DNA of 20,000 nucleotides, taken from the IMG/VR virus record IMGVR_UViG_3300028797_000152, positions 57,162-77,161 of that record. One strand, written 5' to 3'. The notes under the pieces are model-generated. The model was not told the DNA's origin. It was given only the letters and a program-made list of their open reading frames with translations, and searched no databases. Position numbers and translations under genes: made by a program. This DNA comes from an uncultured virus (IMG/VR IMGVR_UViG_3300028797_000152) (taxonomy: Duplodnaviria; Heunggongvirae; Uroviricota; Caudoviricetes). Below are positions 1,755-17,845 of the stretch, one piece after another; the stretch's first letter is position 1, and every line of letters starts with the position of its first letter.

Positions 1755-1758
1755 TTAA

Positions 1759-3176: not shown

Positions 3177-3177
3177 T

Positions 3178-4623
3178 ATGCTCAACAATTGTTTCTGCAA
3201 CTTCGTATTCGCAGGAGTATCGTTGACGGAATTTGGACTGAAAATTCCTTCTCCTTTCTGTTCTCTTGAATTATCAAATTCACAAATAACATCATTCACA
3301 TCTTGGACATTAAATGTAGTTGTTGGTGGAGATGACACTAAGAAGTCAAATGTAGCCGCATTTGAAGCATTACTTTATTCTGCTGCACAAGATGCAAGCA
3401 AATATGCAAATTCAAGCGGAATACCCGTATCTTTCATGTTTGGCTGGCTTAATAATGATGGCTCTATCGGAGCGAGTGTAGCATATCAAGGATTTACTTT
3501 GAAGTTCCAATGTTCCACAGATGGAAGATTCATGAGATATACAGTTACAGGATATGCTTCTATTGGAGTGAAGGCAGCAATGCCTGTTTATCATTTTCCG
3601 GCTGTTCACGGAATGGTTCAACCTTCTGCATTAGTTGAAGCAACTTACAGAAGTTTAAAGATGGATAGATACTACGACCTTGACATTGACCACAATGATG
3701 CTCCTACTTATGTAAATCATGGTGCAATGACAACAAGTGTGAATGGTTATATTAGGGGACACTATTCTACTGAAGACGATTATGAGAGTTGGCCTGGTTG
3801 CTTAAGATTATCAAAATCCTATAGTGGAACAAGAGATGCTGCTGGACTTAAATCAGGTGTGCGTAAATTAAGTTGCTTGATGAATAATCTTCAAGATATA
3901 TCTACATTAGGCGGTTACTTGAAGAAGAGTATAGTAGACGAAACTCCTCAATGTTCTTCTTTCTCTCACTGGGTTGAGGAACCTACAATGACAAGAAAGG
4001 GAACCATCCACTACAAGAGTAATGCAGGACTGATTTCTATGCATAATGGAGATACTCTTGAGTATGGTACGGCTAATACAAATATTCTTTCATTAAGTGG
4101 TTCGTATAATGGTGTTGCATACAACATGACAGATATGAAATTTGCTCAAATCGGATTTTCAGTTGACGGAAGTGGTAACACTATTGTTCAAGATACTAAA
4201 GTAGTAAATAGCTGGTCGGCAACTCTTGGAGATGTTTATCAGACAGTCAATATTATCAATGATGTAAATGCTTTAGCATCTCAGTTCTCAGGAGATTTCA
4301 AGATAACTATTCCTGGTAATGTTAATCAGTACACAGTAGCACAACCTGTATCGTTATTAGTAGTATCCGGAAATACAATTTCACCTGTAACTGGAATTTA
4401 TAATGTAGTTTCTGTTGACCATAGTATTAGTAATCAATTTACGACCACACTCAAGGTACAGAGATTGGTTATGAGTTCTGCTAACGAAGTTGCATCTTCC
4501 CAAGGAATTACTATAGCAAATGGTTCAAGCAGTAGGTCATACAGCAAATCAAATAATATAATATCTGCATATAAAGTAGATTTTGGAACTATGTATCCGA
4601 CGTTTGAAGATGTATCTGCTTAA
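3178..4623 (+). CDS. Putative baseplate hub protein (T4 gp27 / P2 gpD / Mu gp44-like)
   Basis: 481 aa. The C-terminal segment KITIPGN...VAQPVSLLV...TGIYNVVSVDHSISNQFTTTLKVQR is typical of hub proteins. Synteny supports the call. Confidence 0.65.
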   Translation: MLNNCFCNFVFAGVSLTEFGLKIPSPFCSLELSNSQITSFTSWTLNVVVGGDDTKKSNVAAFEALLYSAAQDASKYANSSGIPVSFMFGWLNNDGSIGASVAYQGFTLKFQCSTDGRFMRYTVTGYASIGVKAAMPVYHFPAVHGMVQPSALVEATYRSLKMDRYYDLDIDHNDAPTYVNHGAMTTSVNGYIRGHYSTEDDYESWPGCLRLSKSYSGTRDAAGLKSGVRKLSCLMNNLQDISTLGGYLKKSIVDETPQCSSFSHWVEEPTMTRKGTIHYKSNAGLISMHNGDTLEYGTANTNILSLSGSYNGVAYNMTDMKFAQIGFSVDGSGNTIVQDTKVVNSWSATLGDVYQTVNIINDVNALASQFSGDFKITIPGNVNQYTVAQPVSLLVVSGNTISPVTGIYNVVSVDHSISNQFTTTLKVQRLVMSSANEVASSQGITIANGSSSRSYSKSNNIISAYKVDFGTMYPTFEDVSA

Positions 4624-4635
4624 GGGAGGTTATAA

Positions 4636-5067
4636 TTGAATCAAGTATTATCAATTCTAACTGGCAAGCAGGTAGATTCTTCTGTTATAGATAGGGGCTT
4701 CTGCGGAACAAAGCAAGTAAATGCTGGCTGCTACATCAAGTGTGATAAAGTATACAGTATTTATAGCGGAGTTATATTAGCAACGGAAGTCGACCCTGAA
4801 ACTGACACATGGTCAGTTACTCAAGAAGTAAATTCACAATTCTGGCTCAGATATTGTAACCTCAGTAAAGTGAATGTTTCTGTGGGTAGCAATATAACAT
4901 TATCTAACTACATTGGAGATACAACAAAAGGCTTAGTTAGATTAGAATACTGCAATGCAGAATCTTCTTCATTTCCTGTTAGAATCTTATCTCAGCAATT
5001 GTATAAGCAAGACCCTACTCCTATAATATTTGGTAAAGTGAATATGTTTGAGGTGCCTCATGCCTAA
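4636..5067 (+). CDS. Degenerate M23 peptidase-fold protein lacking Zn ligands
   Basis: TTG start after GGGAGGT. KVYSIYSGVI...LRYCNLSKVNVSVGSNITLSNYIG...LVRLEY...DPTPII follows the M23 pattern (VxAxxxGxV...YxHL...VxxGxxVxxGxxIG...HLHFE...DP), but the His residues are absent. Confidence 0.6.
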   Translation: MNQVLSILTGKQVDSSVIDRGFCGTKQVNAGCYIKCDKVYSIYSGVILATEVDPETDTWSVTQEVNSQFWLRYCNLSKVNVSVGSNITLSNYIGDTTKGLVRLEYCNAESSSFPVRILSQQLYKQDPTPIIFGKVNMFEVPHA

Positions 5068-7648
5068 TACAAATAGTTGGTTATGTATATATGCGATAGC
5101 CCAGTTAGGCAGACCTTATAGATTAGGGGCTAGCGGAGATTTTGAGGTATCTTCTAAAAGAAAATTATATCAGAATAATTGGGAAGTTACTTCTACTACT
5201 TATCCTAATCCTAATTATAATGTTCCTGCAAAGACACATGATTGTTCGGGCCTGTTTATAGGCGCAGTGTGTTGTGATGATGTAAATGGCCCTAAAGTCC
5301 GAAGTACAAATCTATATCATGGTGCAACTAAACAATATTGGGATTTTTGCACACACAAAGGAGATAACATACATGAATTCCCTAGAATTCCAGGTATGTT
5401 AGTATTTAGGTCAAAGTCAGCAGGAAGCCATACAAAGGAACATGTAGGTGTATACATTGGAAGATTTATTGACCTTAATGGCAACCCACACGAAGATTAT
5501 GTAATTGATGCAAAGGGCAAAGATTACGGAGTAGTAATGGGCCCGCTATTTAGGAAAGACGGTTCATCTAGATGGGACTGTTGGGGTCAATTAGATATGT
5601 GTGAACAAGACACAAATGAGACCTCAATATTTGATGCAAGAACAAATTCCATGCGAACAGATGAGCAGCAGGAAGCCGGTGAACTTCAGCCTGTAGAAAT
5701 ATCTACAGAGAACATGAAGCCTTTTGTTGCAACTGTATTAGGTCAATATGACCCTAAATTAGATTACGACAGAATAAGAAATGCAAGAATATCTGCTATG
5801 ATGTTTTATGCAGGAGAATTGTTTGATGTGAGCCATGTTAAACATACATATTTGAATCCTAAATTAGCATATCAAGTAGAGCAGTGTAATTCAGCAGGAC
5901 TTCCTTATGCTTTGTATGTTAATGTCCGAGCAAGAAATGAGATAGAAGCCGATGCAGAATGTAAGGCTCTTTATTATGTCATTTCTCAATTCTCACCTAA
6001 ATTAGGATTATGGCTATCGCTTAATCTCAATAATTCTGTTGATATGAATAATAAAATAGTTTCAATCTATTATAAATTCATATATAGTTGGGGATTAGTT
6101 GATAGATGTGGATTATATGTAACTCGTTCACAACTCCAACAGATAACTTGGGAAAATTTTGAAAATGTATTTTATTTATGGTGCATTGAGCCCGAAGATG
6201 TGAATAATATTGATGATGAATTGCTTGACCCTTCATTATTTGACATTAATCCTGAAGATAACGAAATTGAATCTAGGTACACGGAAGAAACATCTAAAGA
6301 AGTATTTTCAAATGCATCACATTTTGATAGTCCTCGTAGCTGGTTGCCAAATCTGCCTAAGTCTGATGAAAGCGGTAGATTTACAAGGTCAACTGGAACC
6401 ACTTCTAGATTCGTTCGCCAAGAGGAATTAGATGAGCAGAAATTGGAACCTCTTTATACTACTAGAACCGATAGACATGATATGACTCTGCGTCAAGTCG
6501 GATATTTAGACACAGGATATAATTTATCTAACAACAGTTCAAATATAGCAATTTCAGTTATTAACTATACATCGGCCCTTGGCGATATATACGATAGTTT
6601 TGCTCCTACAGTTTCTCAATTAAATTCTACAAAAGTTGATACTTCTGCATTACCTCAGTTACAGAAAATCGCTATAGATAAATTATTAGAGGCTGGATAT
6701 AGTGCTTCAAGTGCAACTGGAATTGTAGCATGCCTAGAGAAATATTCAGGACTGAATACACAGCATGCCAAAACTATTCAGAGTGTAACTTTACATGGAA
6801 TTGGTGATTGGTATGACCAAGATTTTGATGCACTTAAGTCCGCTGTAAGTGATTGGTCAACAAATCTATCAGGACAATTAGATTTCTTAATAACAAATAT
6901 TACTGAAAGATTTTCAGGATATGCTGCTGCTTTTAAGTATCAGCCCCTTGATGTTGAAACTGCACAGAAGTGTGCAGAGATTTTCTTATTAACATATAAT
7001 CCTTATTTTAGTTCTAATGAAGACGTAGAAAATGTAAAGCACAAAGCTCAAGATATTTATGAACGTTTAGTAATAATTCCTCCGAATAAACAGATAATTG
7101 GAGAGCTTAGAGATTTAACAAATATAAATGGACAATTACTTACTGCTCAGTACAGTGTAACCATTCCACCTGAACTTAAACAAACAGGCATAACAGATTA
7201 TTATACAGCATATTGGAGGAACTGGAAAAGCGGAACTCCTCAGAGACAATTATATGATATATGGATTCAACAAGGTCGTCCTTGTGACAAAGGGATTGCT
7301 AAGATTGGTGGATACTACTGTGTAGCATTGATGACTGAAAAATTTGGCCCTGTAGGCAGCGTAGTCGTTATATCTCTTAAGAACGAAGTTAGTTTTCCTG
7401 CAATAATAGCAGACGCTAAAGGTGTAGATGCAAAGAACGAATGGGGTCACGATTACGGAAAATCAGGAATATCTATTGTTGAGTGGGAAAGAATTAAAAC
7501 TGAAAATGGCGTTTGTGTGAAAGGTGGGAGCAGTTTAACTGGGGACGATGTAGATTACCCACATACTCCTTCTTGGATGAAAGAAGCATGGGAAGGTTGG
7601 TACTTAGAGGATGTTGCATTCATTACTAATTATGGAAGTTATATCTGA
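5060..7648 (+). CDS. Multidomain virion-associated peptidoglycan hydrolase: NlpC/P60 + GH25-like + phage-tail-lysozyme-like + C-terminal beta-barrel-like domain
   Basis: ATG at 5060 after GAGGTG. NlpC/P60 motifs AQLGRPY..G, HDCSGL and HVGVYIG. GH25-like segment LDYDRIRNARISAMMFYAG...AGLPYALY...EADAEC. Tail-lysozyme-like segment GYSASSATGIVACLEKYSGLN...GIGDW...QLDFL. C-terminal YYCVAL...FGPVGSVVVISL...FPAIIADAKG. Confidence 0.75.
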   Translation: MPNTNSWLCIYAIAQLGRPYRLGASGDFEVSSKRKLYQNNWEVTSTTYPNPNYNVPAKTHDCSGLFIGAVCCDDVNGPKVRSTNLYHGATKQYWDFCTHKGDNIHEFPRIPGMLVFRSKSAGSHTKEHVGVYIGRFIDLNGNPHEDYVIDAKGKDYGVVMGPLFRKDGSSRWDCWGQLDMCEQDTNETSIFDARTNSMRTDEQQEAGELQPVEISTENMKPFVATVLGQYDPKLDYDRIRNARISAMMFYAGELFDVSHVKHTYLNPKLAYQVEQCNSAGLPYALYVNVRARNEIEADAECKALYYVISQFSPKLGLWLSLNLNNSVDMNNKIVSIYYKFIYSWGLVDRCGLYVTRSQLQQITWENFENVFYLWCIEPEDVNNIDDELLDPSLFDINPEDNEIESRYTEETSKEVFSNASHFDSPRSWLPNLPKSDESGRFTRSTGTTSRFVRQEELDEQKLEPLYTTRTDRHDMTLRQVGYLDTGYNLSNNSSNIAISVINYTSALGDIYDSFAPTVSQLNSTKVDTSALPQLQKIAIDKLLEAGYSASSATGIVACLEKYSGLNTQHAKTIQSVTLHGIGDWYDQDFDALKSAVSDWSTNLSGQLDFLITNITERFSGYAAAFKYQPLDVETAQKCAEIFLLTYNPYFSSNEDVENVKHKAQDIYERLVIIPPNKQIIGELRDLTNINGQLLTAQYSVTIPPELKQTGITDYYTAYWRNWKSGTPQRQLYDIWIQQGRPCDKGIAKIGGYYCVALMTEKFGPVGSVVVISLKNEVSFPAIIADAKGVDAKNEWGHDYGKSGISIVEWERIKTENGVCVKGGSSLTGDDVDYPHTPSWMKEAWEGWYLEDVAFITNYGSYI

Positions 7649-7649
7649 T

Positions 7650-7673
7650 AACCTTTCATACATCATATAAATA
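7650..7673 (+). promoter_or_regulatory. Putative phage late-promoter motif AACCTTTCAT followed by TATAAATA
   Basis: Intergenic, 41 nt before the ATG at 7691. The same motif occurs in the next two intergenic gaps. TATAAATA at 7666-7673 matches the T4 late -10 consensus. Confidence 0.5.
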
Positions 7674-7690
7674 GGATAGGATACTAGATT

Positions 7691-7981
7691 ATGATAATTT
7701 TTGGTTATGTTAAAGCGACAAAATATTCAGGAGACGGTAGTTTGATGGTTCAAACTAGAATTCCGAATATTCATGGGCCTTATCGCATATCAGATGCAAA
7801 GGGCAAGACCGTTAGAAATTATACTAGAGACGAAGACCTTCCTTGGTATCCTTCTTTAGTACTTCCGTACCTGCCGAAGGCAGGAGATGTAGTTGCAATA
7901 TCTAGTTTAGATAGTACTTCATCTTCTTTCTTAATACTTGGCCTTACAGGCGGTTCATATACAAACAATTCTGATATATGA
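7691..7981 (+). CDS. Baseplate spike OB-fold protein (T4 gp5 N-terminal / P2 gpV-like), minimal
   Basis: Pattern G.V........G...VQTRIP.IHG...DEDLPW......LPKAGDVVAI......FLILG. It lies directly upstream of the gp25-like gene. Confidence 0.7.
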   Translation: MIIFGYVKATKYSGDGSLMVQTRIPNIHGPYRISDAKGKTVRNYTRDEDLPWYPSLVLPYLPKAGDVVAISSLDSTSSSFLILGLTGGSYTNNSDI

Positions 7982-7988
7982 GAATTAC

Positions 7989-8010
7989 AACCTTTTATCA
8001 TTAAATAAAT
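7989..8010 (+). promoter_or_regulatory. Putative phage late-promoter motif AACCTTTTAT
   Basis: Intergenic, 37 nt before the ATG at 8026, followed by an AT-rich tract and RBS AGGAG. Confidence 0.5.
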
Positions 8011-8025
8011 TCAGGAGATTAATAT

Positions 8026-8490
8026 ATGGCAGAAACAACCTCGTTATCATTTCCTAATATGTTCAACCTCATAAGCAATCAGGTTGCCGTAGACGAGGAT
8101 TTAAAGTCAGTGACAACTCGTTCTAGGCTCTTGATTTTAACTGAGCCTGCAGAATTGTATAATAATCCTGATTTTGGTGTTGGATTGAAGCGCCATTTAT
8201 GGAAATATAATACTGAAAATGAAAGAGCATTGATTAAGGACAGAATCGTAAATCAATTAAGATTACACGAGCCTGATGTCTATGCTGACCAGACACAGTT
8301 TACAGATGGTCTTTTATTTACAGGAGATACAAATGCAGCAGATTCTGCTACAAATGCAAATGAAATCAATATGACAGTAGCAATGCAGACAACATTTGGA
8401 AAGCAAGTTACCTTAGATTTGAATTCTACTCCTGCTACTCAAAATAAACTGACAATATCTGCTCAAGGGTGGATAATTTCAGATAAATAA
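8026..8490 (+). CDS. Baseplate wedge / sheath initiator (T4 gp25 / P2 gpW-like)
   Basis: LLILTEPAELYNNPDFGVGLKRHLW...IKDRIVNQLRLHEP matches the gp25 signature (LxTxxGExxxxPxFGxxL...IxxxIxxxEP). Confidence 0.85.
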   Translation: MAETTSLSFPNMFNLISNQVAVDEDLKSVTTRSRLLILTEPAELYNNPDFGVGLKRHLWKYNTENERALIKDRIVNQLRLHEPDVYADQTQFTDGLLFTGDTNAADSATNANEINMTVAMQTTFGKQVTLDLNSTPATQNKLTISAQGWIISDK

Positions 8491-8529: not shown

Positions 8530-8772
8530 ATGACGGTATCAGATATTATTGAAACTTTTACTGATGATGGCTTCACTTTGATACTTTATGACCTTACTAC
8601 AGAGACTGAAATCTACAAAGGTTCTGCAAGTGATGTCTTTTATGAGGATGTTGGCGATTTAGAAGTTATGTCTATTGACCCACCCGAGAAGGCTTGGGAA
8701 ATAACTCTTAATGTAGAAACCTCCAATAATTTCTATGATGAGAGTGAAGAAGATTTCGATGACGAATTCTAA
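8530..8772 (+). CDS. Small acidic hypothetical protein (80 aa) inserted between the gp25-like and gpJ-like genes
   Basis: Strong RBS AAGGAG and an acidic tail DESEEDFDDEF. Resembles ORF 10702..10923. Confidence 0.75.
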   Translation: MTVSDIIETFTDDGFTLILYDLTTETEIYKGSASDVFYEDVGDLEVMSIDPPEKAWEITLNVETSNNFYDESEEDFDDEF

Positions 8773-8787
8773 TTAGGAGAAATATAG

Positions 8788-10686
8788 ATGGCAGAATCAG
8801 AAGCAAACCATGGTCTGATTAATTACGCAAGTAGAGATTATCAAAGTCTGATGGAAGAGTTTTGGGCATTAGTTCCGAAACTCACTGATGTGTGGAAGCC
8901 GGAAGCTGACGCAGACCCGGGTGTTGTATTAGGCAAATTACTTGCTTCTGCTGCAGATTGTTTGTCTGTCAACCAAGATTATCTAGCCAACGAGCTCTTC
9001 GCACCGTCTGTTTTACAGAGAAAAGATGCAGAAAAGATTTTTGGCCTTATCGGATATGATTTAGGTTTCTATACAGCAGCAAGAACAGAAGTTACATTCA
9101 CAAATAATACTTCAGATACAATGAATCTTGATTTTGGATTCAATGGAGCAAACTTCTGCACACTTAATGCTTATACAGATATTACAAATACTGCTAGAGT
9201 TATCAACTACAACATTCTTCCGATGACAAGTAGTTACGGAGATACAGAGAGTAGAAGCAGACGAAGTGTTCTGACTGACTATATTGATGTATTTGCAGAA
9301 TCTGATAAAGTAACTTTAGAGTCAGGTAAATCAGTAACTAGAGTAGCAATTGAAGGCGAACTTAGAAGTTATTCTATTTCAGTTGATGAAGTAATTAAAA
9401 GTAATTATATCATAACATTGCCTTCTCAGCATGTTGATACAACAGCAGTTTGGATTAAAGGTAAAACTTCGTTATCTGCCTCGTCTTTTGATAAGACTCA
9501 ATGGATTCAGGTTGCTAATGTTGCAGAGTTCAATACAGCAGAGCCCAGATATTGCGTAACTTATGACAATTACTCAAATGCACATATAACTATTTCTAAT
9601 TACCTTAATCAGTTATCTAATTATAAGGGATATGTGTTAACTATCTATTGGATAGACTGTTCAGGTGTAATCGGTTGTGTAGGTACTGATGTATTAGAAA
9701 ATCTTATCTTTGCCAAGACAAATAATCCTGCTTATGAACCTAGTGAGATTTTGATTTCTAATCTTTCCAATACAGTAGAGTTACCCCATACTTATGCAGT
9801 AACTGGTAAATCTCCTGAAACTGCAAAAGAAGCATATCACAATAGCAGGAATTCAATCAATACCTGGGACAGTCTTGTAACTCTTCCTGATTATACTCGT
9901 TTCCTTAAGAGGGAAGCCGGAGTAGATTGCGGAGTAGTTATTGACTGTCAAAAGGCGCTTGAAATCAACTTAGCAATATACAAAGACAAGAACTTAACTA
10001 GTAGCCAGAAGTCAAAGATGTATATAACTACTAGAGAATTCCCAAAAGGAAACTTACAGTCCTTAGATTGGAGAAACATCCTTAGTGATGAATTGATTCA
10101 ACTCTATAAAAGGAATAGTATGCCTTTTGAAGTCAATTTTAAAACAAACACAGCAGTTTGCTTTGCAATTCACAATGACTTCAAGGATGATATTTGGGGA
10201 CAAGGTCAAGTTGATTTGGCACAAACTAGCAATGATTCTTCATTTACTAGATATAAGCCACCGCAAATGTTTATCGATAATATAATTGCAGATTTCAGGC
10301 CGCTACAAGCGATGTCTGTAGATATGCAATTTAGTTCTTGTAGAGTATTTGACTTCTATGTAGTGGGTCAGATATTCACAAATAGGCCTGTAACAGAAGA
10401 TGTTGGCAAGACAATTATCAACAAGGCTAAAGAAGCATTAGCAATTTACTTTGCTCCGGCTAATAGAGGATTCAATCTCAAGCCTACAATAATGGAAATT
10501 GTCAAGGTAATACAGAATTGCGACGAAAGAATAATATACTTTGACGCAGGTAGCCCTAGTAATCCTGTAATCAAGTGGAGTAATTGTGATGTAGAATGCT
10601 TTAATTACATCTCATTTGCAAGATACAATGAGCCTGATAATGCAGGTCAAGCAATAAGAATTGCACCAGAATGTTTAACAAAATAA
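8788..10686 (+). CDS. Baseplate wedge protein J (T4 gp6 / P2 gpJ-like)
   Basis: N-terminal NYASRDYQSL...W....ADPGVVL..L.A...D.LS...D....E.F......RK......LIGY...YTAARTEVTF. Later G.SPET...A.......TWDSLVTLPDY. 632 aa. RBS AGGAG. Confidence 0.88.
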   Translation: MAESEANHGLINYASRDYQSLMEEFWALVPKLTDVWKPEADADPGVVLGKLLASAADCLSVNQDYLANELFAPSVLQRKDAEKIFGLIGYDLGFYTAARTEVTFTNNTSDTMNLDFGFNGANFCTLNAYTDITNTARVINYNILPMTSSYGDTESRSRRSVLTDYIDVFAESDKVTLESGKSVTRVAIEGELRSYSISVDEVIKSNYIITLPSQHVDTTAVWIKGKTSLSASSFDKTQWIQVANVAEFNTAEPRYCVTYDNYSNAHITISNYLNQLSNYKGYVLTIYWIDCSGVIGCVGTDVLENLIFAKTNNPAYEPSEILISNLSNTVELPHTYAVTGKSPETAKEAYHNSRNSINTWDSLVTLPDYTRFLKREAGVDCGVVIDCQKALEINLAIYKDKNLTSSQKSKMYITTREFPKGNLQSLDWRNILSDELIQLYKRNSMPFEVNFKTNTAVCFAIHNDFKDDIWGQGQVDLAQTSNDSSFTRYKPPQMFIDNIIADFRPLQAMSVDMQFSSCRVFDFYVVGQIFTNRPVTEDVGKTIINKAKEALAIYFAPANRGFNLKPTIMEIVKVIQNCDERIIYFDAGSPSNPVIKWSNCDVECFNYISFARYNEPDNAGQAIRIAPECLTK

Positions 10687-10701
10687 AAGGAGAAATATAA
10701 C

Positions 10702-10923
10702 ATGATGAATTTAGTGGATTTCTTATCTCAACTTAGTGATAATATTATCATTAAATCCCTTGATGGAACCGTATTATTTAGGGGAAATGTTGGGGAACTT
10801 TATGCAGGCAATGAAATTGATGCTGATTACTTTCTGAGTGATGACCTTACAATTAAAGATTTTGCAGTATATGAGGCTTATGCATCTGGTAGTTGCATAA
10901 TTATAAATGTAGCATTTGCTTAA
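10702..10923 (+). CDS. Small hypothetical protein (73 aa), probable paralog of 8530..8772
   Basis: RBS AAGGAG. Shares the pattern M.(V/L).D.(I/L)...D....I..L....(I/L)(Y/F)(K/R)G...(D/E)...DL.(V/I)...I.(L/I)NV. Confidence 0.7.
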   Translation: MMNLVDFLSQLSDNIIIKSLDGTVLFRGNVGELYAGNEIDADYFLSDDLTIKDFAVYEAYASGSCIIINVAFA

Positions 10924-10933
10924 GGGTGATATT

Positions 10934-11248
10934 ATGAAAAAGTATATAAAATCAAGTTCTGGTAGCATGGATGACATCATTCAATTAGCAGATGATGTTG
11001 AAGCATTATTAAATGAGAATAGAATAAGTCATGTAGAGTTATATAACTATAAGCGTTATGAACCTATTCCTGAAATTGCTGTCATATCATTCTTAATTGA
11101 AGGCGATTGGAAACATGACCATATCAGAGCCGATTGGCTTGTAAAAGATAACTTCAGCGTTGTTAAGAACGAAAGTTATGCAACAGAAGATACAGGTTCC
11201 GATTGGGGCCCTGAAGTTCATACATATTATATCTATATGAATCACTAA
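10934..11248 (+). CDS. Hypothetical protein with MKKYIKSS leader and GDWKHDH motif (104 aa)
   Basis: The ATG at 10934 follows GGGTGA just after the upstream stop and is preferred over the TTG at 10916. Function unknown. Confidence 0.75.
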   Translation: MKKYIKSSSGSMDDIIQLADDVEALLNENRISHVELYNYKRYEPIPEIAVISFLIEGDWKHDHIRADWLVKDNFSVVKNESYATEDTGSDWGPEVHTYYIYMNH

Positions 11249-11251
11249 TCT

Positions 11252-11278
11252 ATGAAAATCAGTGATATATCAGTCTAG
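11252..11278 (+). pseudogene. Stranded 5' remnant (MKISDISV*) of the gpI-like gene
   Basis: atg aaa atc agt gat ata tca gtc tag encodes the same 8 residues as 11701-11724 (atg aaa ata agc gat atc tca gtt). There are 4 differences in 24 nt, all synonymous third positions. Confidence 0.85.
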
Positions 11279-11327
11279 AGAAAGCAATAGAATTTTTGAA
11301 AAAAAATAAGATAAAGGAGACACAAAC

Positions 11328-11690
11328 ATGAAAAGAACAAACAGAGTTTATCCTCAAAGTTATGTAAGAGCAAGTTCAGACAATAGTCGGATATCTATCG
11401 ATGATATTAAATCTGCAATTAAAGAATGCAAAGAATACGGAGCAAAGTGTCGAATTAAAGGCGATTACGTAAGATATACATCATTTGAAGATGATTTTGT
11501 ATCTTATAATAGCTTATCTGACATGGTTGCTGAGCTTAATTCTACAAATATGTCATATGATGATATAATGGAAGACCCCGGTCAAATATTTGATTATGGC
11601 CAGATTGATTCTTTAGGAATCAGCATGTCAAGCGAAGTTCCTGAATATCGTCAATTTAAGAAAGAAATGAATGCTAAGTTAGGCTTCTGA
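11328..11690 (+). CDS. Inserted hypothetical protein (120 aa) with basic leader MKRTNRVYPQSYVRASS
   Basis: RBS AAGGAG. It sits between the remnant and the intact 5' end of the gpI-like gene. Confidence 0.8.
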   Translation: MKRTNRVYPQSYVRASSDNSRISIDDIKSAIKECKEYGAKCRIKGDYVRYTSFEDDFVSYNSLSDMVAELNSTNMSYDDIMEDPGQIFDYGQIDSLGISMSSEVPEYRQFKKEMNAKLGF

Positions 11691-11700
11691 TTAATATAAT

Positions 11701-12807
11701 ATGAAAATAAGCGATATCTCAGTTCCTTCTATATACAAATCTTCTGCAGATTTCCGCTTTTTCATAAAGTGGTTTGAATATGCTTTGACTAGATTACAGT
11801 TTGATATAGAAAATACTGCAGATTTATATGACCCTCTTCGTTGTCCTAGTCATCTACTTTGGATGCTTGGCGATACAATGGGATACAAATATGATGATAG
11901 AGCAGGATTATGCAAAGCATTTAATCGCTTTGTTATGTTATACTTTATGTCTATGATAAAGTATAAAGGAAGTAACCTTGGAGTTACATTAGCCGCAGAG
12001 GTTAATCTCAAACAAAAAGATATAAATGCCTATGGAGAAGAGAATGATATCCTTTTTGATAGATTAGAAGATACCTCAATTCCTAATAACTCAGTGTATG
12101 TTGAATCTAATACAGATATGGGCTATATTAATGTAATATATTTTACAGATGAGAAGCCGATAGATACTTGTATTGAATATGTTAGGCCGCTTGGAATGTA
12201 TTGTTTTCAGTATGCAGGTGTTAGGATTGATTCTTTAACAAGAATTTCAGTAGACGCAAGACTTGCAAAAGCCGGAGACGCTACTGGAATCATCGGCCCT
12301 ACAAAAGTTGGCCATTATACAAGGAATGATTATGCAAGGATGCAGAGAATGAAACATGAGTCTGCTCCTGAAATAATAAATACTCATGATAAGAGACAAC
12401 CTGTATATGCAAGAAATTCTGAAGCAGAATCTCAGCCTACAATTAATGCAGGTTACAGGGCCTTGAATTCACTTCAGATGGCTAATAATGAACATATTGT
12501 TAAGTCGTTATTTAGCGAACCAATATTCAGTTTAGGAGTAAGTCCTACTGTCGATGAAATGACCGAAGTTGATGTAAATGACCCAAAGTATAACCTTAGA
12601 TATAATAGAACAGTTGACTTAGCGAGTTATAGGACACCTCCTACAGATGAACATCCTGAAGGGGAGCCTATTGGACAAGATATTGTCAACGAAATCGGGT
12701 ATCTTCCTGTTGATACTCTTGACAAGGGTAAAGAACAACATTATAACGCTCCTGTTCCTAAAGTAGATGGAATAATGACACAAGCAGGAGAACCAATGGA
12801 TACATGA
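11701..12807 (+). CDS. Baseplate wedge protein (P2 gpI / T4 gp7-like)
   Basis: DLYDPLRCPSHLLWMLGDTMGYKYD...R.........IKYKGS..G matches the gpI-type signature, and IEYVRPLG occurs later. It lies between gpJ and the tail fibre. Confidence 0.75.
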   Translation: MKISDISVPSIYKSSADFRFFIKWFEYALTRLQFDIENTADLYDPLRCPSHLLWMLGDTMGYKYDDRAGLCKAFNRFVMLYFMSMIKYKGSNLGVTLAAEVNLKQKDINAYGEENDILFDRLEDTSIPNNSVYVESNTDMGYINVIYFTDEKPIDTCIEYVRPLGMYCFQYAGVRIDSLTRISVDARLAKAGDATGIIGPTKVGHYTRNDYARMQRMKHESAPEIINTHDKRQPVYARNSEAESQPTINAGYRALNSLQMANNEHIVKSLFSEPIFSLGVSPTVDEMTEVDVNDPKYNLRYNRTVDLASYRTPPTDEHPEGEPIGQDIVNEIGYLPVDTLDKGKEQHYNAPVPKVDGIMTQAGEPMDT

Positions 12808-12820
12808 GAGGAGGTAACAA

Positions 12821-15800
12821 GTGAAAGATAGACGTAAGTTACCTGCTCTTGATAATGCCCAAAAGTTAACTAAACCTGATTTGAATACTATCGGCGATAA
12901 GAATTACGTCGATACTATATTGCGTTATGGCGGACTTGCTACTCATTTTGTGCAATTAGACACAAAAGCAAAATATATTGTCCCTGCCATCAACGAGATA
13001 ATTGTATATCCTAATCCGCCTGAAACACCTACTCAAACATTAAATAAAGTTAAGATTGATAATACAATCTATGCTTTATCTGGCGGCTCAACAGTTATTC
13101 CTAATCCGCCTGACCCTTCTGGTGCTTTAATAACAGAAGATGGTCATATAATTCTTATTGAATCCGGCTCAGAATTAATTCCTGAACAAAGTAGTGGCGG
13201 AGGTACTCCCTCATATCCACCATTAGTTACTGTTAGTATTGATGGTACCATCTACTCTATTGCCGGAGATTATACCTTACCTATTGCTTCTGCTGATACA
13301 TTGGGTGGTATTAAAGTTGGCGAAGGCTTACATATTAATAGCGAAACGGGTGTACTATCTACAGATAATGGGATTGAGTACTTCCCGGGTGTAGGTGTAT
13401 ACTTCAGTTCAGCGGTAACTGAGAATTTTACTACTGCGGCGTATGACGAAAGCACCGGAATATCTTATACTGAATGTCAATTATCCTATCCTACGACTTC
13501 AGATTCTATACGAATAGCTTGTAATCCACCTAGAGGTTCTTATTTTGACTTCCGATATGATTCTGATACAAAGGTAGTTACAGTAATTTGTCGTGATTAT
13601 GTACCAGAAGGAACCCCACTAGAAATAAATTATCAAGGTATTAACGACCGTGCACGCAGTATCAATGCAGAAGTAGGTAGGAAAAGTCCTACTTATCTAC
13701 AAGCAGGACTTAGTTCTGATTACATATCTTCAGAAAGAAAGGATGCTTGGAGAGATACACAAACAGTTGTAGATGGAAATCATGTATATACTAATAATGG
13801 AGGAACAACTGGTCGGAGTAAGGGATTTTCATTAGGAAAGATAACTGTAACTGGAACTGAATCTGCCTCATTCTTTGTAAAACAAGATTCTACTAATACT
13901 AATACAGCCTATGTTCTTATAAGTAAGCCTGATAAATCATTTAAAGTTACTGTTACTGAAACTTTTACTGGAGATGGAACAACTACAACATTTACAGTTG
14001 CCCATGATGTCTACACCCCAGGTGTAATAAGCACATCTCCTTCTTATTATTCTGGTCAGTGGTCAGGAAATAATGTAGTATTCTCAGTTGCACCTTCTGT
14101 AGGAACGACAATTTCTGCTACTTATGAGTATATAGATATCACTGATTCTAGTTTAGTCCTTAAATCATATAAAGGCTTAACTACCGAAGATTATGTAGAA
14201 TGTCCTATTTCTTTCGGTGACGGACGTACTGCTACTAATATCTATAAGAGAACAGTAGATGTCTTATATGTTAAAGACGGCGATAGTTCTATAAATGATA
14301 GTAGTGCTTATATATATTACACAGTAGGTGCACCTTACTTTGGAAACTTAGGTGAAGTTTTCAATGATTATGCTTGGAGTACTCATCATAGCAATTATGC
14401 TATAGGATATCAAGCCCATGCCGAAGGTGGAGATAGCCTTGCTTTTGGTAATCGAAGCCATGCAGAAGGCCAGTCTAAAGCAATAGGCGGTCATTCGCAT
14501 TCTGAGGGTACGGGTTTAGCTCTTGGGAATCTATCTCATGCAGAAGGTGAAGATACTACAACTACAAATACCAGCGCCCATGCAGAAGGTCGTGATACTC
14601 TTGCTTCAGGGTGGCAAGCTCATGCAGAAGGTGAATCTACTCAAGCAACGGGGCATTATTCCCATTCAGAGGGAACTGTTACTGTAGCCTCTAACCAAGC
14701 AGCTCATGCAGAAGGTACGTCTACTCAAGCATCAGGTGATAGTGCCCATGCTGAAGGTAATAAAACTGTTGCAAGTAATTCTCAATCTCACGCAGAAGGC
14801 GATAATACAAAAGCAACAGGACCTTCGGCTCACGCAGAAGGCGGTTCCACTGTCGCATCAGGTAATCGTTCTCATGCAGAAGGTAATATGACTACGGCAT
14901 CGGGAGATTATTCCCATGCAGAAGGTAACTATACTCAAGCTACAAACTATTACGCTCACGCAGAAGGTCAATCTTCTATAGCTTCTGGTAGTGACGGTGC
15001 CCATGCAGAAGGTAATTCCACAAAAGCAATAGGTGTTGCTTCACATTCTGAGGGTTTATATTCTCAAGCTCAAGGTACATATGCCCACGCAGAGGGCAAT
15101 TCTACTACTGCTTCCGGAGATAACTCACATGCCGAAGGTGAGCATACAACAGCTTCGGGTTTTGATGCTCATGCTGAGGGACAAGCATGTGTAGCTAGCA
15201 ATTCTTACTCCCACGCAGAAGGACAGCATACAACTGCATCTGGTCAAGTATCTCATGCTGAAGGCTATTACACAACTGCTTCAGGTACAGATGCACATGC
15301 AGAAGGCATAAGTACTATATCATCTGGTTATGGTTCTCATGCCGAAGGTGAAAATACACAAGCTCTGCAAGAAGCAAGCCACGCCGAAGGTGAATATACA
15401 ATTGCTGCAAGTAGAGACCAGCATGTATTTGGTAAATATAATATTGCAGATATTCCGCCATCGGGTGGTACTGGTCATGGTACTTATGTAGAAATAGTCG
15501 GTAATGGTACTAGCGATAATGCCAGGTCTAATGTAAGAACATTAGATTGGAATGGTAATGAATATGTTGCTGGTAGAATTACTGTTGGCTTAGCTCCTCT
15601 CGCAGGAATGGATGTTGCTACAAAGAAATATGTAGACGACCATGGTGGTGGAGGCGGTGGGGGACTTCCTTCAATTAAAGCTGGTACTGGTATTGCTGCA
15701 GAATTATTCAACCAGATGGATGAGTATAATGAAAGCACTGCTAGTGGTGATTACTCTCATGCTGAGGGTATAAGTACTACATCTTCAGGTCCAGGTGCTC

Positions 15801-17845
15801 ATGCAGAAGGTCACAGCAGTATTGCTTCAGGCCTTGCTTCTCATGCAGAAGGTACAACCTCATTTGGTGGGCCAGTTACTGCAAGTGGTGTAGGTTCTCA
15901 TGCAGAAGGTAGCGGAACTATTGCACAAGGTGATGCTTCTCACATAGAAGGTACCCGTGGTTTAGCTTATGGTGAAGCTACTCATGTAGAGGGTAGCGGA
16001 AACCTTGGATTCGGAAGAGAATCTCATGCAGAAGGTAGCGGTAACGTAACTGGCGGTGACCACGGTCATACAGAAGGTGCGGGAAACTACAATGTAGGAT
16101 ATAGTTCTCATGTAGAAGGTGCAGGAAATAGTACACTTCCTAATTCTAATATAACCCATACAGAAGGCGCCGGTAACGCTAATTATGGTGTCCAAGCACA
16201 TGTAGAAGGTGCAGGAAATAATCTATCTGGCGAAGAGTCTCACGTAGAGGGCGCAGGTAACAAAATTCACGGTGCAAAAACTCATGCCGAAGGCGGCGGG
16301 AATAATATTTATGCCCTCGGTTCTCATGTAGAAGGTAAACATAATGATGTTACTGGCTTTGCTGTCCACGCAGAAGGTTCTCATAACTTCCTTGGAGTTT
16401 CTGAGAATATTAGTCCATTTGTATTTGGAACAACCTATGCAGTAGGTGATATTGTAGGACCTAATGCATTATATAATCCTGATTATCAAAATGAAACAAC
16501 TAGACCATTCATATATAGGTGTATAACTGCTCCTGGTCAAATACAGGCAAGCAATGCGGTCCAGATAATATCACCATCAACTTGGAGTGCTTCGACAACA
16601 TATGTAACTGGGGATGTAGTTAAGTTTGTAGTTTCAAATGCATATGGTCAGCAAATAACTCGATATTATTATGCCACTAACGATGTTCCTACAGGTCAAT
16701 CTCCATTAGAAAATAATAAATGGTCTCGTATAACTTCATTATTAACTCCATTCAAAACAACAACTTCTAATGGGTACTACTTACTTAATCCTGAATCAGA
16801 ATCTAAGAGTGGTTCAGGAAATGTTGCTAAAGTAACTGGAACAGTTGCTGCTATGTGGGAGCCTATCGATTCTATCGAAGGTACTCATGTTGAAGGTTAC
16901 TACAATATTGCAATTGGTAATTATCAGCATGTAGGCGGTAAATATAATGTAGCAGATGCTAATAAAGCAGTTATTATTGGTAATGGTGAAGACGACGGCG
17001 GAGTTGTAACTAGGTCTAATGCTTTAACACTTGATTGGTCTGGTAATCTTGTAATTGCCGGAGATTTGACAACAGGTACTACCTTATCAACATCTTCGCA
17101 GAGTATAGCGGCAGCTATTAATGAATTATATTCCGAATTAGGTAGCGAAGTATCTGTTACACAAGTTCAGTCTACTGGTACAAAGATAGCAGAGATTACA
17201 ATTGACGGAACAACTACTGATATTTATTCTCCTAACGGAGGCGGTGGCGGTTCTACTGTTGTAGTTGAGCCGGTAGTGCAGTCCGGTGTCAATATCGCAG
17301 ATATCACTGTAGATGGTACCACTTCTCATCTCTATACACCTAATGCGGTAGGTTCAGTAACAGTAACCCAAACACAGCAATCTGGTACAAAGGTAGCAGA
17401 AATTGATGTAGATGGTACTTCTACTGATTTATATGCACCTACACCGACTTCAGTATCTATTGACGATACTTTATCGACAGGAACAAAAGTTGCTACTATA
17501 ACAATAGACGGCACGGATACGGAGATTTTAGTCCCTTCCGCAGGTTCTTCTGTCCAAGTAACGCAGATACAAGATACAGGAACTCATATTGCCGATATCG
17601 AGGTAGATGGCGTTACGACTGAACTTTATGCACCTAATGGTGGTGGCGGAGCAGTTATTGATGATAATGATATTGCATTAGATAAGACTTGGAGTTCAAG
17701 CAAAATCAATAGTGAGTTGACTTCACTTGCTGATAGAATAGAAGCAATAGAGAGATACTTATTCGGAATACCTTTAATAACAGAAAATGGTGACCAAAGA
17801 ATAACGGAAGACGGCTCAGATAGAATATTGGAGCAAGAAGAATAA
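12821..17845 (+). CDS. Long tail fibre / adhesin (1674 aa) with two YadA-head-like HAEG beta-roll blocks and CBM5/12-like inserts
   Basis: GTG start after GAGGAGGT. About 40 (S/A/T)HxEG 14-residue repeats. Fibre motifs LPIASADTLGGIKVG, FTGDGTTTTF, DVATKKYVD, AINE and IDD...KTWSSSKI. Five GTKIAxIxIDG repeats. Confidence 0.85.
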   Translation: MKDRRKLPALDNAQKLTKPDLNTIGDKNYVDTILRYGGLATHFVQLDTKAKYIVPAINEIIVYPNPPETPTQTLNKVKIDNTIYALSGGSTVIPNPPDPSGALITEDGHIILIESGSELIPEQSSGGGTPSYPPLVTVSIDGTIYSIAGDYTLPIASADTLGGIKVGEGLHINSETGVLSTDNGIEYFPGVGVYFSSAVTENFTTAAYDESTGISYTECQLSYPTTSDSIRIACNPPRGSYFDFRYDSDTKVVTVICRDYVPEGTPLEINYQGINDRARSINAEVGRKSPTYLQAGLSSDYISSERKDAWRDTQTVVDGNHVYTNNGGTTGRSKGFSLGKITVTGTESASFFVKQDSTNTNTAYVLISKPDKSFKVTVTETFTGDGTTTTFTVAHDVYTPGVISTSPSYYSGQWSGNNVVFSVAPSVGTTISATYEYIDITDSSLVLKSYKGLTTEDYVECPISFGDGRTATNIYKRTVDVLYVKDGDSSINDSSAYIYYTVGAPYFGNLGEVFNDYAWSTHHSNYAIGYQAHAEGGDSLAFGNRSHAEGQSKAIGGHSHSEGTGLALGNLSHAEGEDTTTTNTSAHAEGRDTLASGWQAHAEGESTQATGHYSHSEGTVTVASNQAAHAEGTSTQASGDSAHAEGNKTVASNSQSHAEGDNTKATGPSAHAEGGSTVASGNRSHAEGNMTTASGDYSHAEGNYTQATNYYAHAEGQSSIASGSDGAHAEGNSTKAIGVASHSEGLYSQAQGTYAHAEGNSTTASGDNSHAEGEHTTASGFDAHAEGQACVASNSYSHAEGQHTTASGQVSHAEGYYTTASGTDAHAEGISTISSGYGSHAEGENTQALQEASHAEGEYTIAASRDQHVFGKYNIADIPPSGGTGHGTYVEIVGNGTSDNARSNVRTLDWNGNEYVAGRITVGLAPLAGMDVATKKYVDDHGGGGGGGLPSIKAGTGIAAELFNQMDEYNESTASGDYSHAEGISTTSSGPGAHAEGHSSIASGLASHAEGTTSFGGPVTASGVGSHAEGSGTIAQGDASHIEGTRGLAYGEATHVEGSGNLGFGRESHAEGSGNVTGGDHGHTEGAGNYNVGYSSHVEGAGNSTLPNSNITHTEGAGNANYGVQAHVEGAGNNLSGEESHVEGAGNKIHGAKTHAEGGGNNIYALGSHVEGKHNDVTGFAVHAEGSHNFLGVSENISPFVFGTTYAVGDIVGPNALYNPDYQNETTRPFIYRCITAPGQIQASNAVQIISPSTWSASTTYVTGDVVKFVVSNAYGQQITRYYYATNDVPTGQSPLENNKWSRITSLLTPFKTTTSNGYYLLNPESESKSGSGNVAKVTGTVAAMWEPIDSIEGTHVEGYYNIAIGNYQHVGGKYNVADANKAVIIGNGEDDGGVVTRSNALTLDWSGNLVIAGDLTTGTTLSTSSQSIAAAINELYSELGSEVSVTQVQSTGTKIAEITIDGTTTDIYSPNGGGGGSTVVVEPVVQSGVNIADITVDGTTSHLYTPNAVGSVTVTQTQQSGTKVAEIDVDGTSTDLYAPTPTSVSIDDTLSTGTKVATITIDGTDTEILVPSAGSSVQVTQIQDTGTHIADIEVDGVTTELYAPNGGGGAVIDDNDIALDKTWSSSKINSELTSLADRIEAIERYLFGIPLITENGDQRITEDGSDRILEQEE
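14417..15391 (+). repeat. Coding tandem repeat block 1: 24 HxEG units, period about 42 bp
   Basis: Recurrent CATGCAGAAGG/CACGCAGAAGG in frame within the fibre gene. Confidence 0.9.
15758..16897 (+). repeat. Coding tandem repeat block 2: 15 HxEG units, an insertion of about 160 aa, then a 16th unit
   Basis: Counted from the translation. Later units have the variant form H(V/T)EGAGN. Confidence 0.85.
17150..17650 (+). repeat. Five approximately 33-aa repeats (V.V.Q..xGTKIAxIxxDGxxTxLYxP) in the fibre C-terminus
   Basis: Visible in the translation, separated by Gly/Ser/Pro linkers. Confidence 0.85.

What the first reader, a model, noticed from the sequence alone, without database searches (positions are those of the whole stretch)
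11252..11724. Gene-insertion fossil: a cargo gene inserted into an essential baseplate gene and brought a synonymously recoded replacement 5' end
Seen: 3 nt after the stop of ORF 10934..11248 lies a mini-ORF, MKISDISV*. It is identical in protein to the first 8 residues of the gpI-like gene 449 nt downstream but differs at 4 of 8 wobble positions. A complete 120-aa gene lies between the two copies. A fresh target-site duplication would be identical in DNA, so synonymous-only divergence implies that both copies were under purifying selection as gene starts. Inference: [cargo gene + its own allele of the gpI start] came from a related phage, with an illegitimate left junction at about 11275 and homologous recombination inside gpI on the right. 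An alternative is a mobile cassette that restores the gene it interrupts, as integrative elements do. No integrase or nuclease motif is visible in the cargo.
Basis: partly seen in the sequence, partly recalled or inferred. Interest (0 to 1): 0.8.

Follow-up and report, generated by a model that had tools for sequence, protein, structure and literature searches.

The report
Recombination scar in phage baseplate hotspot
A 27-base mini-gene is the orphaned start of a neighbouring phage baseplate gene, left when two related phages recombined at a spot where small accessory genes pile up; the scar itself is ordinary, but most of those accessory genes share an unexplained seven-residue N-terminal tag.

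Summary
Window 11252..11278 encodes MKISDISV*, which matches the first 8 codons of the gene at 11701 at 20 of 24 bases, with all 4 differences synonymous. It is the only such match in the 77-kb genome.

The site lies between a baseplate-J-like gene and a P2-gpI-like gene. This gap is a hypervariable hot spot. It is 1-14 nt long ("empty") in 11 records, including two close relatives, L077 and L080. In 18 distinct other arrangements it holds 255-4658 nt of small genes.

One relative, L003, carries the mirror image: 13 codons of another allele of the gpJ 3' end sit between its cargo gene and gpI.

An independent sample bridges both junctions with identical contigs.

Best reading: this is a scar of one non-homologous, unequal crossover between collinear relatives, which concatenated their cassettes. 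No transposon, integrase, nuclease, promoter or terminator is involved.

Not found: the predicted allele in which ORF 10934..11248 runs straight into gpI.

Side finding, possibly the more novel one: 21 of 98 genes in this genome and 39 of 58 hot-spot ORFs in relatives begin MKxY[IV][KR][SA]. This leader is selected at the peptide level, is disordered, and looks added on.

The parts
8788..10686 (+). Baseplate-J-like wedge gene (632 aa). It is the left conserved flank of the hot spot and ends ...QAIRIAPECLTK*.
   Evidence: PHROG 219 'baseplate wedge subunit', E 2.2e-6. tblastn hit on the annotated 'baseplate J protein' of a Bacillus phage, E 2e-6. Homologues of 63-84% identity occur in all related loci, and nucleotide homology to relatives stops at its stop codon.
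10702..10923 (+). First gap gene, s73 (73 aa). It has no leader motif and no known function.
   Evidence: ORF with a ribosome-binding site. No Pfam match, and only a weak PHROG match of unknown function. Absent from the empty-site relatives.
10934..11248 (+). Second gap gene, s104 (104 aa). It is a leader-tagged (MKKYIKSSSGS-) member of a small GDWKHDH family. In the inferred parent it was followed directly by the I-like gene.
   Evidence: 14 homologues of 55-73% identity plus its own sequence (15 hits); alignment. The AF2 model has pLDDT 88.9, with residues 1-8 below 50. The stop at 11246-11248 lies 3 nt before the fossil's ATG.
11252..11278 (+). The fossil: ATG plus 7 codons of another allele of the gpI-like gene's start, ending in a TAG created at the junction. 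The breakpoint is at about 11274-11276.
   Evidence: see the observation check.
11279..11309 (+). Possible second, decayed scar. It is 31 nt long and resembles the last 10 codons plus the stop of a J-like gene (AGAA-AGCAATAGAATTTTTGAAAAAAAATAA against AGAATTGCACCAGAATGTTT--AACAAAATAA). Uncertain.
   Evidence: Local alignment score 14, with the best match to the window's own J allele. This score was reached by 3 of 1000 shuffles of the 35-nt query and by 14 of 2077 genome 35-mers, but by 31 of 500 shuffles of a longer 52-nt query. The look was post hoc.
11314..11319 (+). Shine-Dalgarno sequence (AAGGAG) of the cargo gene.
   Evidence: Read directly from the sequence. It lies 8 nt upstream of the ATG at 11328.
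11328..11690 (+). Cargo gene s120 (120 aa). It is an orphan with a variant leader, MKRTNRVYPQSYVRAS.
   Evidence: No Pfam match, and only weak PHROG matches of unknown function. Only 2 homologues were found among 5.8 billion clusters, at 99% and 87% identity. The protein atlas gave no usable hit. Its first 44 nt are 86% identical to the start of an L002 gene whose body belongs to another family.
11701..12807 (+). Functional P2-gpI-like baseplate gene (368 aa). It is the right conserved flank of the hot spot.
   Evidence: It lies between the J-like gene and the 1674-aa fibre gene. It has no direct Pfam hit. However, 20 of 30 weak profile hits of its family match Pfam Tail_P2_I at E<=0.001, 18 of them above the curated cut-off. 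Nucleotide homology to relatives resumes at its ATG.

Best explanation
The mini-ORF is a recombination scar. Two related, collinear phages carried different small accessory genes in the gap between their baseplate J-like and I-like genes. Parent A had J-s73-s104-I. Parent B had s120 in front of its I gene.

One non-homologous (unequal) crossover joined parent A, 24 bases into its I gene, to parent B at a point upstream of s120. The product keeps A's left arm and B's right arm, so both cassette sets now sit in tandem. A's I gene start is orphaned and closed by a chance TAG at the joint. B's intact I gene supplies the function.

The four synonymous differences are simply the allelic difference between the two parents' functional I genes. 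The recombinant was viable because a complete I gene lay downstream and the gap is read through as part of the late baseplate operon.

Shown: the fossil, its allelic nature, the hot spot, the empty sites, a mirror-image scar in a relative, and the reality of both junctions. Inferred: the single-crossover history and the identity of the parents.
For: (1) The fossil is real and non-random.

(2) All 4 differences are synonymous, P=0.0006 under neutral change. The fossil sits within the range of natural alleles of the MKISDISV start class; the nearest is L035 at 21/24.

(3) The J-I gap is a hot spot. There are 18 distinct occupied arrangements (255 to 4658 nt) and 3 kinds of empty site (14, 8 and 1 nt). 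Nucleotide homology to every relative stops at the J stop codon and resumes at the I start codon.

(4) L003 has a mirror-image scar. After its cargo gene (2010-2390) come 13 codons, QAIRIAPECLIR*, of another allele of the J 3' end, overlapping the I start as ATGA. The real J gene ends at 2002. Five of the differences are synonymous, and the 2 amino-acid differences both occur in other functional alleles. 23 consecutive bases are identical to the J end of the empty-site relative L080.

(5) A possible decayed J 3' remnant lies directly after the fossil, as an unequal crossover would leave.

(6) Cassette families recur in different orders, loci and genome regions. For example, the L033 gap gene is 85% identical to a gene 34 kb away in this genome.

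(7) Both junctions are bridged by identical contigs in a second sample and study.

(8) There is no promoter or terminator excess, no GC anomaly and no terminal inverted repeats.

(9) The genome encodes a UvsX-like recombinase, a Cas4-like exonuclease and two Holliday-junction resolvases.
Against: - Neither parental arrangement was found. No record has s104 directly before the I gene, and no record shows the context of the 87%-identical s120 homologue.
- Only 2 of the 18 occupied gaps show a clear scar, so most junctions are clean or already eroded.
- There is a tension if 11279-11309 really is a J remnant from the same event. It has decayed (2 indels, 5 mismatches) while the adjacent I fossil shows no non-synonymous change. 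Either the J-like similarity is chance, or the two scars differ in age, or that stretch was reshaped as the A-rich leader of s120.
- The fossil is only 24 nt long, so the comparison of alleles has little power.
Confidence: 0.75

Rival explanations
1. In-situ duplication. The insertion of s120 produced a direct repeat of the I gene start (a long target-site duplication or a local tandem duplication), and the two copies then diverged in place.
For: The two copies form a direct repeat flanking the cargo. The possible J-like remnant matches the window's own J allele best, which would also fit an intragenomic event.
Against: A non-functional copy should accumulate changes at all positions, yet 0 of the 4 differences is non-synonymous (P=0.0006 if all changes arose in the fossil). 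If changes are shared between a constrained copy and a free copy, P is about 0.009; this is my own arithmetic from the 13/72 synonymous fraction. No transposase and no terminal inverted repeats are present.
Confidence: 0.08
2. Functional mini-ORF. The 8-codon ORF is kept by selection, for example to capture ribosomes that terminate at s104 (its ATG lies 3 nt after that stop) and to tune translation of s120 or the I gene.
For: The ATG is intact and there is no non-synonymous change. The position is typical of translational coupling. The I gene in the window lacks a clear Shine-Dalgarno sequence.
Against: The ORF has no Shine-Dalgarno of its own. s120 has a strong one of its own 49 nt further on. 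No other of the 18 occupied gaps has such a mini-ORF, so there is no conservation to indicate function. Identity to the I gene start is fully explained by descent.
Confidence: 0.07
3. Self-restoring mobile cassette. s120 belongs to a site-specific element that targets the start of the I gene and carries a replacement start, as integrative elements carry a replacement gene end.
For: The geometry is the same as in elements that integrate into a gene and restore it. That comparison (prophages in icd or in tRNA genes) is recalled from memory and was not checked here.
Against: There is no integrase, recombinase or nuclease in or beside the cargo. The repeats are not identical. s120 was found only in this context. 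In other loci, unrelated cargo sits at the same site without I-start repeats. The L003 scar is at the other flank.
Confidence: 0.03
4. Chance similarity or mis-assembly.
For: The sequence is AT-rich and only 24 nt long.
Against: No comparable match occurred in 20 random genomes, and it is the only match in the real genome. The junctions are bridged by identical contigs in a second study. The same 11 kb is present in a 98-kb public contig.
Confidence: 0.02

Closest known systems
Phage genome mosaicism by illegitimate recombination followed by selection for function (the model summarised in PMC3233612, Background; passages read)
   Same: Module boundaries coincide with gene boundaries. Partners share little or no identity at the joint. 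Only products that keep intact genes survive. Here the joint fell 24 nt inside a gene and was tolerated because a whole copy followed.
   Different: Here the joint itself is still visible as a duplicated gene end. A mirror-image example sits at the other flank in a relative, and empty sites exist in close relatives. Most described mosaic joints are inferred from clean boundaries.
Morons (extra genes inserted between two genes that are adjacent in related phages). The definition is recalled from memory; no paper was read for it.
   Same: s73, s104 and s120 lie between two genes that are adjacent in relatives.
   Different: There is no promoter or terminator of their own above chance and no compositional difference. 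The genes ride on the late baseplate operon.
[quoted passage not shown]
   Same: This is an analogue for the side finding. A hypervariable set of unrelated small proteins shares only a short N-terminal peptide. One cassette in a relative is an ADP-ribosyltransferase of the 'polyvalent protein' type.
   Different: The leader here (MKxY[IV][KR][SA]) marks about a fifth of all genes and is spread over several genome regions. No protease site, virion location or injection has been shown.
Prophages that integrate inside a gene and carry a replacement end for it (recalled from memory; not checked here)
   Same: A duplicated gene end with mostly synonymous differences flanks foreign DNA.
   Different: There is no integrase, no identical core repeat and no recurrent element. 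The cargo varies from phage to phage.

Membership tests
Recombination scar at a mosaic joint (unequal or illegitimate crossover) | A partial copy of a flanking gene's end sits at the joint, next to a complete functional copy. | tested here: met
   A mirror case is in L003.
Recombination scar at a mosaic joint (unequal or illegitimate crossover) | The partial copy differs from the functional copy the way alleles of different phages differ, not the way a decaying duplicate would. | tested here: met
   4 of 4 differences are synonymous, P=0.0006, and lie within the range of natural alleles.
Recombination scar at a mosaic joint (unequal or illegitimate crossover) | Relatives exist with the two flanking genes adjacent, and others with different content in the gap. 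| tested here: met
Recombination scar at a mosaic joint (unequal or illegitimate crossover) | The parental arrangements can be identified. | tested here: not met
   No record has s104 directly before the I gene. The contexts of the s104 and s120 homologues could not be fetched.
Moron | Inserted between genes that are adjacent in relatives. | tested here: met
Moron | Has its own promoter and terminator. | tested here: not met
   12 promoter-like sites against 8.7 +/- 3.2 expected. 1 terminator-like site against 0.7 expected, and it lies inside the I gene.
Transposon or insertion sequence with target-site duplication | Identical short direct repeats, terminal inverted repeats and a transposase. 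| tested here: not met
   The repeats are 20/24 identical. No notable terminal inverted repeats were found. No transposase family matched.
Integrative element that restores its target gene | An integrase or recombinase plus a recurrent element at the same target. | tested here: not met
Free-standing homing endonuclease cassette | A nuclease gene in the inserted segment. | tested here: not met
   No nuclease family matched in s73, s104 or s120.
P2 gpI family (Pfam Tail_P2_I), for the gene whose start is duplicated | A match to the family profile. | tested here: inconclusive
   There is no direct match, and only faint matches in 3 of 12 close homologues (best E 0.064). But 20 of 30 distant profile hits match Tail_P2_I, 18 of them above the cut-off. 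These 30 were picked from the 150 listed hits, among those with E 7e-25 to 3e-9. Synteny J-I-fibre is present. The AF2 model was too poor to use (pLDDT 41).
T4-type capsid targeting sequence (for the MKxYI leader) | A short conserved N-terminal peptide on otherwise unrelated proteins. | tested here: met
T4-type capsid targeting sequence (for the MKxYI leader) | Tagged proteins are packaged in the virion and processed by the prohead protease. | not testable with these tools
   This needs virion proteomics. No protease or cleavage motif was identified here.

The most novel reading that the evidence does not exclude
The hot spot and its scars may be the visible traffic of a lineage-specific system of tagged gene cassettes. 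About a fifth of the genes in this phage group carry an add-on, disordered N-terminal peptide MKxY[IV][KR][SA] followed by a Ser/Thr/Asn-rich linker. The tag is selected as a peptide.

It may mark otherwise unrelated small proteins for a common fate. The most interesting possibility is loading into the virion for injection with the DNA, as the T4 capsid targeting sequence does for internal proteins. Alternatives are timed proteolysis or recognition by one phage factor.

The baseplate gap is then one of several docks where such cassettes are stacked by unequal crossovers.
Probability: 0.3. Interest if true: 0.8.

Novelty: new member of a known kind. Interest (0 to 1): 0.5.

Why it matters
Phage mosaicism is usually inferred from clean module boundaries, and the joints themselves are rarely seen. 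Here one locus provides a gene-start fossil in the window, a mirror-image gene-end fossil in a relative, and empty sites in close relatives. Together they show step by step how an accessory-gene array between two essential baseplate genes grows by non-homologous crossovers that happen to leave a whole gene downstream. This supports the 'random joint plus selection' model over a targeted-insertion model at this locus.

The context adds an unexplained feature that may matter more. A peptide leader is shared by most of the shuffled genes. If it is a sorting tag, it would single out a whole class of candidate injected or host-directed phage proteins in uncultivated gut phages.

Tried and rejected
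- **GenBank phages.** blastn of 10600-12900 gave no match. tblastn with the J-like protein gave only one weak Bacillus phage hit.
- **s120 function.** Nothing in Pfam and only weak unknown PHROGs. Only 2 homologues. One IMG/VR locus, which is itself. No usable atlas hit.
- **I-like gene.**
  - The AF2 model had pLDDT 41 and was unusable, so no fold search was made.
  - The profile search against PDB sequences found nothing meaningful.
  - The PF09684 search of the genome found no match.
- **s104 fold.** No PDB match at E<=0.001.
- **Promoters and terminators.** No excess over shuffles.
- **GC content.** No anomaly.
- **Exact fossil allele in IMG/VR.** Only this phage was returned.
- **Profile search for s104 relatives in IMG/VR.** Only distant relatives, in other contexts.
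- **First remnant scan.** The scan missed the L003 scar because the search region ended before the ATGA overlap. It was seen by eye and confirmed by the corrected scan.
- **Possible third scar in L004** (3943, 6 of 8 residues; gapped nucleotide alignment, score 14). Too weak to count.
- **Stretches without contig cover** in runs X3-X5. No inference was drawn from them.
- **Leader in print.**
  - Full-text search for MKRYIK, MKKYIK, MKIYIK and MKRYIR returned 0 papers.
  - Two keyword searches returned nothing relevant, judged from the listings only.
- **Earlier notes of this scan.** None on this genome, and none on this motif.
Full report
**1. Observation**

ORF 10934..11248 (here s104) ends with TAA. 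Three bases later comes atgaaaatcagtgatatatcagtc followed by tag (11252..11278, MKISDISV*). A 120-codon ORF (s120, 11328..11690) with its own AAGGAG site follows. At 11701 a 368-codon gene starts atgaaaataagcgatatctcagtt (MKISDISV-PS...).

- The two 24-mers agree at 20 positions. All four differences are third-position and synonymous.
- The functional gene's first 24 nt have only this one other match with 4 or fewer mismatches in the whole 77,161-base genome, on both strands. They had none in 20 Markov-random genomes.
- The repeat finder ranks the pair as the top direct repeat of the region.
- Four random substitutions would all be synonymous with probability 0.0006.

**2. Reality of the junctions**

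The window is the 3' end of a 77-kb virus record estimated to be about 51% complete. A 98-kb public contig carries the same 11 kb at 100% protein identity, but it may not be independent.

Contigs of four public runs were laid on 10300-12500.
- X1 may be the source sample. It spans the whole stretch in one 15.5-kb contig.
- X3 comes from another sample and study. One contig covers 11196-11346 and another covers 11657-12500, both with 0 differences, so both junctions are bridged independently.
- No contig joins across 11252-11700.

**3. What the flanking genes are**

- The upstream 632-aa gene (8788..10686) is baseplate-J-like: PHROG 219, E 2.2e-6, and a tblastn hit on an annotated 'baseplate J protein'. 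A gp25/W-like gene lies before it (Pfam GPW_gp25, 26.9 bits against a cut-off of 27.2).
- The 368-aa gene has no direct family match, and its AF2 model was unusable (pLDDT 41).
- A profile of 12 homologues (A1) found 439 proteins at E<=0.001. I scanned 30 of the 150 listed hits, choosing 200-310-residue hits with E 7e-25 to 3e-9. Of these, 20 match Pfam Tail_P2_I at E<=0.001, and 18 exceed the curated cut-off.
- Together with the order W-J-I-fibre, 'gpI-like baseplate gene' is justified by transitive homology and synteny. Whether the gene is essential is inferred, not tested.

**4. The gap is a hot spot**

Protein-guided scans of IMG/VR (21 loci) and of metagenome contigs (27 loci, many from the same contigs) were combined with a pattern scan for the MKISDISVP start (8 loci). 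The picture is as follows.

- Nine records of a distant clade (51-52% I-gene identity) have J and I 14 nt apart.
- Two close relatives are also empty. L077 has TGA, 8 nt, then ATG, and its I gene's first 26 nt are identical to the window's functional start. L080 has TGA, 1 nt, then ATG.
- Eighteen distinct arrangements carry 255 to 4658 nt of small forward-strand genes. The window carries 1014 nt.
- Nucleotide homology between the window and every relative ends at the J stop codon and resumes at the I start codon. Inside the gap, only short leader pieces and one conserved motif match.
- Gap genes form families that recur in other orders and places. For example, the single gap gene of L033 is 85% identical to a gene at 34.1 kb of this genome.

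**5. A mirror-image scar**

In L003 the real J gene ends at 2002 and a 126-aa cargo gene occupies 2010-2390. The 39 nt before the I gene then read QAIRIAPECLIR*, and the stop overlaps the I start as ATGA.

- Against L003's own J end, this copy has five synonymous differences and two amino-acid differences. Both amino-acid variants occur in functional alleles of other phages.
- 23 consecutive bases equal the J end of the empty-site phage L080.
- So the right part of L003 came from an empty-site phage, cut 13 codons before the end of J.
- This remnant also carries the GGAG, within the Pro-Glu-Cys codons, that lies 11 nt before the I start. That may explain why it is retained (inference).

A corrected scan of all 18 occupied gaps found one I-start fossil (the window, 8 of 8 residues), one clear J-end fossil (L003, 8 of 8) and one weak candidate (L004, 6 of 8; not counted).

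**6. Allelic nature of the fossil**

Functional I genes of the window, L003, L033 and L035 (and of L077 and L080) all begin MKISDISV. In one search's comparison the four alleles differ from each other by 1-4 synonymous bases in 24. The fossil is a further version: 21/24 to L035, 20/24 to the window and L003, and 19/24 to L033.

That is what is expected if it was the working start of another phage's gene. In-place decay of a duplicate is unlikely. P is 0.0006 if all changes occurred in the dead copy. P is about 0.009 if changes are shared between a constrained copy and a free copy; this second figure is my own arithmetic from the 13 of 72 synonymous single changes.

**7. Mechanism**

One unequal, non-homologous crossover between two collinear genomes is sufficient. 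The left arm comes from a parent with J-s73-s104-I, cut 24 nt into I. The right arm comes from a parent with s120 before I, cut upstream of s120. No second crossover is needed.

Such an event concatenates the two parents' gap contents, and it should leave an I start followed by a J end at the joint. The 31 nt right after the fossil (11279-11309) do resemble a J 3' end, with the best match to the window's own allele. The score of 14 was reached by 3 of 1000 shuffles and by 14 of 2077 genome 35-mers. With a longer query it was reached by 31 of 500 shuffles. I treat this as suggestive only, for three reasons:
- The look was post hoc.
- The stretch has 2 indels and 5 mismatches.
- That degree of decay sits uneasily beside the unblemished I fossil.

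Nothing indicates a dedicated element. There is no integrase, transposase or nuclease family, no terminal inverted repeats, no promoter or terminator excess and no GC anomaly. The phage has its own recombination genes: a UvsX-like recombinase, a Cas4-like exonuclease and two resolvases. Their involvement is conjecture.

This fits the second of the two published models of phage mosaicism, random illegitimate joints filtered by selection for gene function (PMC3233612, Background; passages read).

**8. Side finding: a shared N-terminal leader**

- In relatives, 39 of the 58 gap ORFs (50 aa or longer) start MKxY[IV]. Four more have the motif at an in-frame Met within 30 residues.
- In this genome, 21 of 98 called genes start this way, all on the gene strand, and there are 0 internal MKxY[IV] in 23,362 residues.
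- The DNA pattern occurs on the gene strand 12 and 15 times in two related genomes. It occurs once each in two genomes of the empty-site clade and 0 times in an unrelated phage. The reversed-pattern control gave 0 everywhere.
- Across 53 distinct instances, Arg is coded by AGA, AGG, CGA and CGC, Ser by both TCN and AGY, and Tyr by TAT (33) and TAC (20). So the peptide is conserved rather than the DNA, although AAA is favoured at codons 2 and 6.
- The leader is an add-on. Close s104 homologues have it, while distant ones in other phages start about 17 residues later. s104 keeps a Met right after the leader. In the AF2 model of s104 (pLDDT 88.9), residues 1-8 are disordered.
- One tagged cassette in L014 is an ART-PolyVal ADP-ribosyltransferase, matched from residue 11 (E 2.2e-9).
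- s120 has a variant leader. Its first 16 residues match the start of an L002 gene whose body belongs to another family.

The nearest known analogue is the T-even internal-protein set, which is diverse and shares only a capsid targeting sequence (PMC3012670, section 6; passages read). The leader's function here is unknown. Full-text searches for four versions of the motif found no paper.

**9. Verdict**

It is best seen as an ordinary but unusually legible recombination scar in a cassette hot spot, not as a special insertion mechanism. The predicted s104-to-I empty allele was not found, and the relevant contigs could not be fetched. The leader motif is the part that deserves follow-up.

Noticed in passing
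Genome-wide (G000), for example window 10934; also L002-L056 gap genes: About a fifth of all genes (21 of 98) and 39 of 58 hot-spot ORFs in relatives begin MKxY[IV][KR][SA], followed by a Ser/Thr/Asn-rich stretch. The motif never occurs internally. It is conserved as a peptide, it is disordered in a confident model, and it is absent from distant homologues of the same protein. Its function is unknown, and no paper was found.
   Followed up: partly
L003 2391-2434: A mirror-image scar: 13 codons of another allele of the J gene's 3' end lie between a cargo gene and the I gene, and the stop overlaps the I start (ATGA). The remnant contains the GGAG that probably serves as the I gene's ribosome-binding site.
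   Followed up: yes
L007 2122, L011 3122, L010 3709 (compare L006 3998): Some cassette proteins carry two leaders in tandem, for example MKIYIKSTSAL-RRYIRAYWYD, where the L006 homologue starts MKIYIRAYWYD. They look like in-frame versions of the same kind of joint scar.
   Followed up: partly
L014 1559-2041 and 2507-3682: The largest gap (4658 nt) holds a leader-tagged ART-PolyVal ADP-ribosyltransferase (E 2.2e-9) and a full S-adenosylmethionine synthetase. This suggests host-directed or counter-defence cargo.
   Followed up: no
window 8530-8772: An 80-aa gene lies between the W-like and J-like baseplate genes. It was not detected there in the relatives that show both genes, so this looks like a second, smaller insertion site. 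No scar was seen.
   Followed up: partly
window 10694-10705 and 11693-11704: The 12 bases around the start of s73 (AATATAACATGA) and around the I gene start (AATATAATATGA) match at 11 of 12 (D11). This may be a trace of an older J-I junction, or it may be chance in AT-rich DNA.
   Followed up: no
G000 7194-8186, and 1278-7182: The phage encodes a queuine tRNA-ribosyltransferase-like protein, which may point to 7-deazaguanine DNA modification (my inference from the match). It also encodes clamp-loader subunits, a UvsX-like recombinase, a Cas4-like exonuclease and a Holliday-junction resolvase here, with a second resolvase at 36053-36595.
   Followed up: no
window 12821-17845: A 1674-aa fibre protein contains long runs of HAEG-type repeats that match YadA head repeats (Pfam PF05658, E 7.7e-10).
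   Followed up: no
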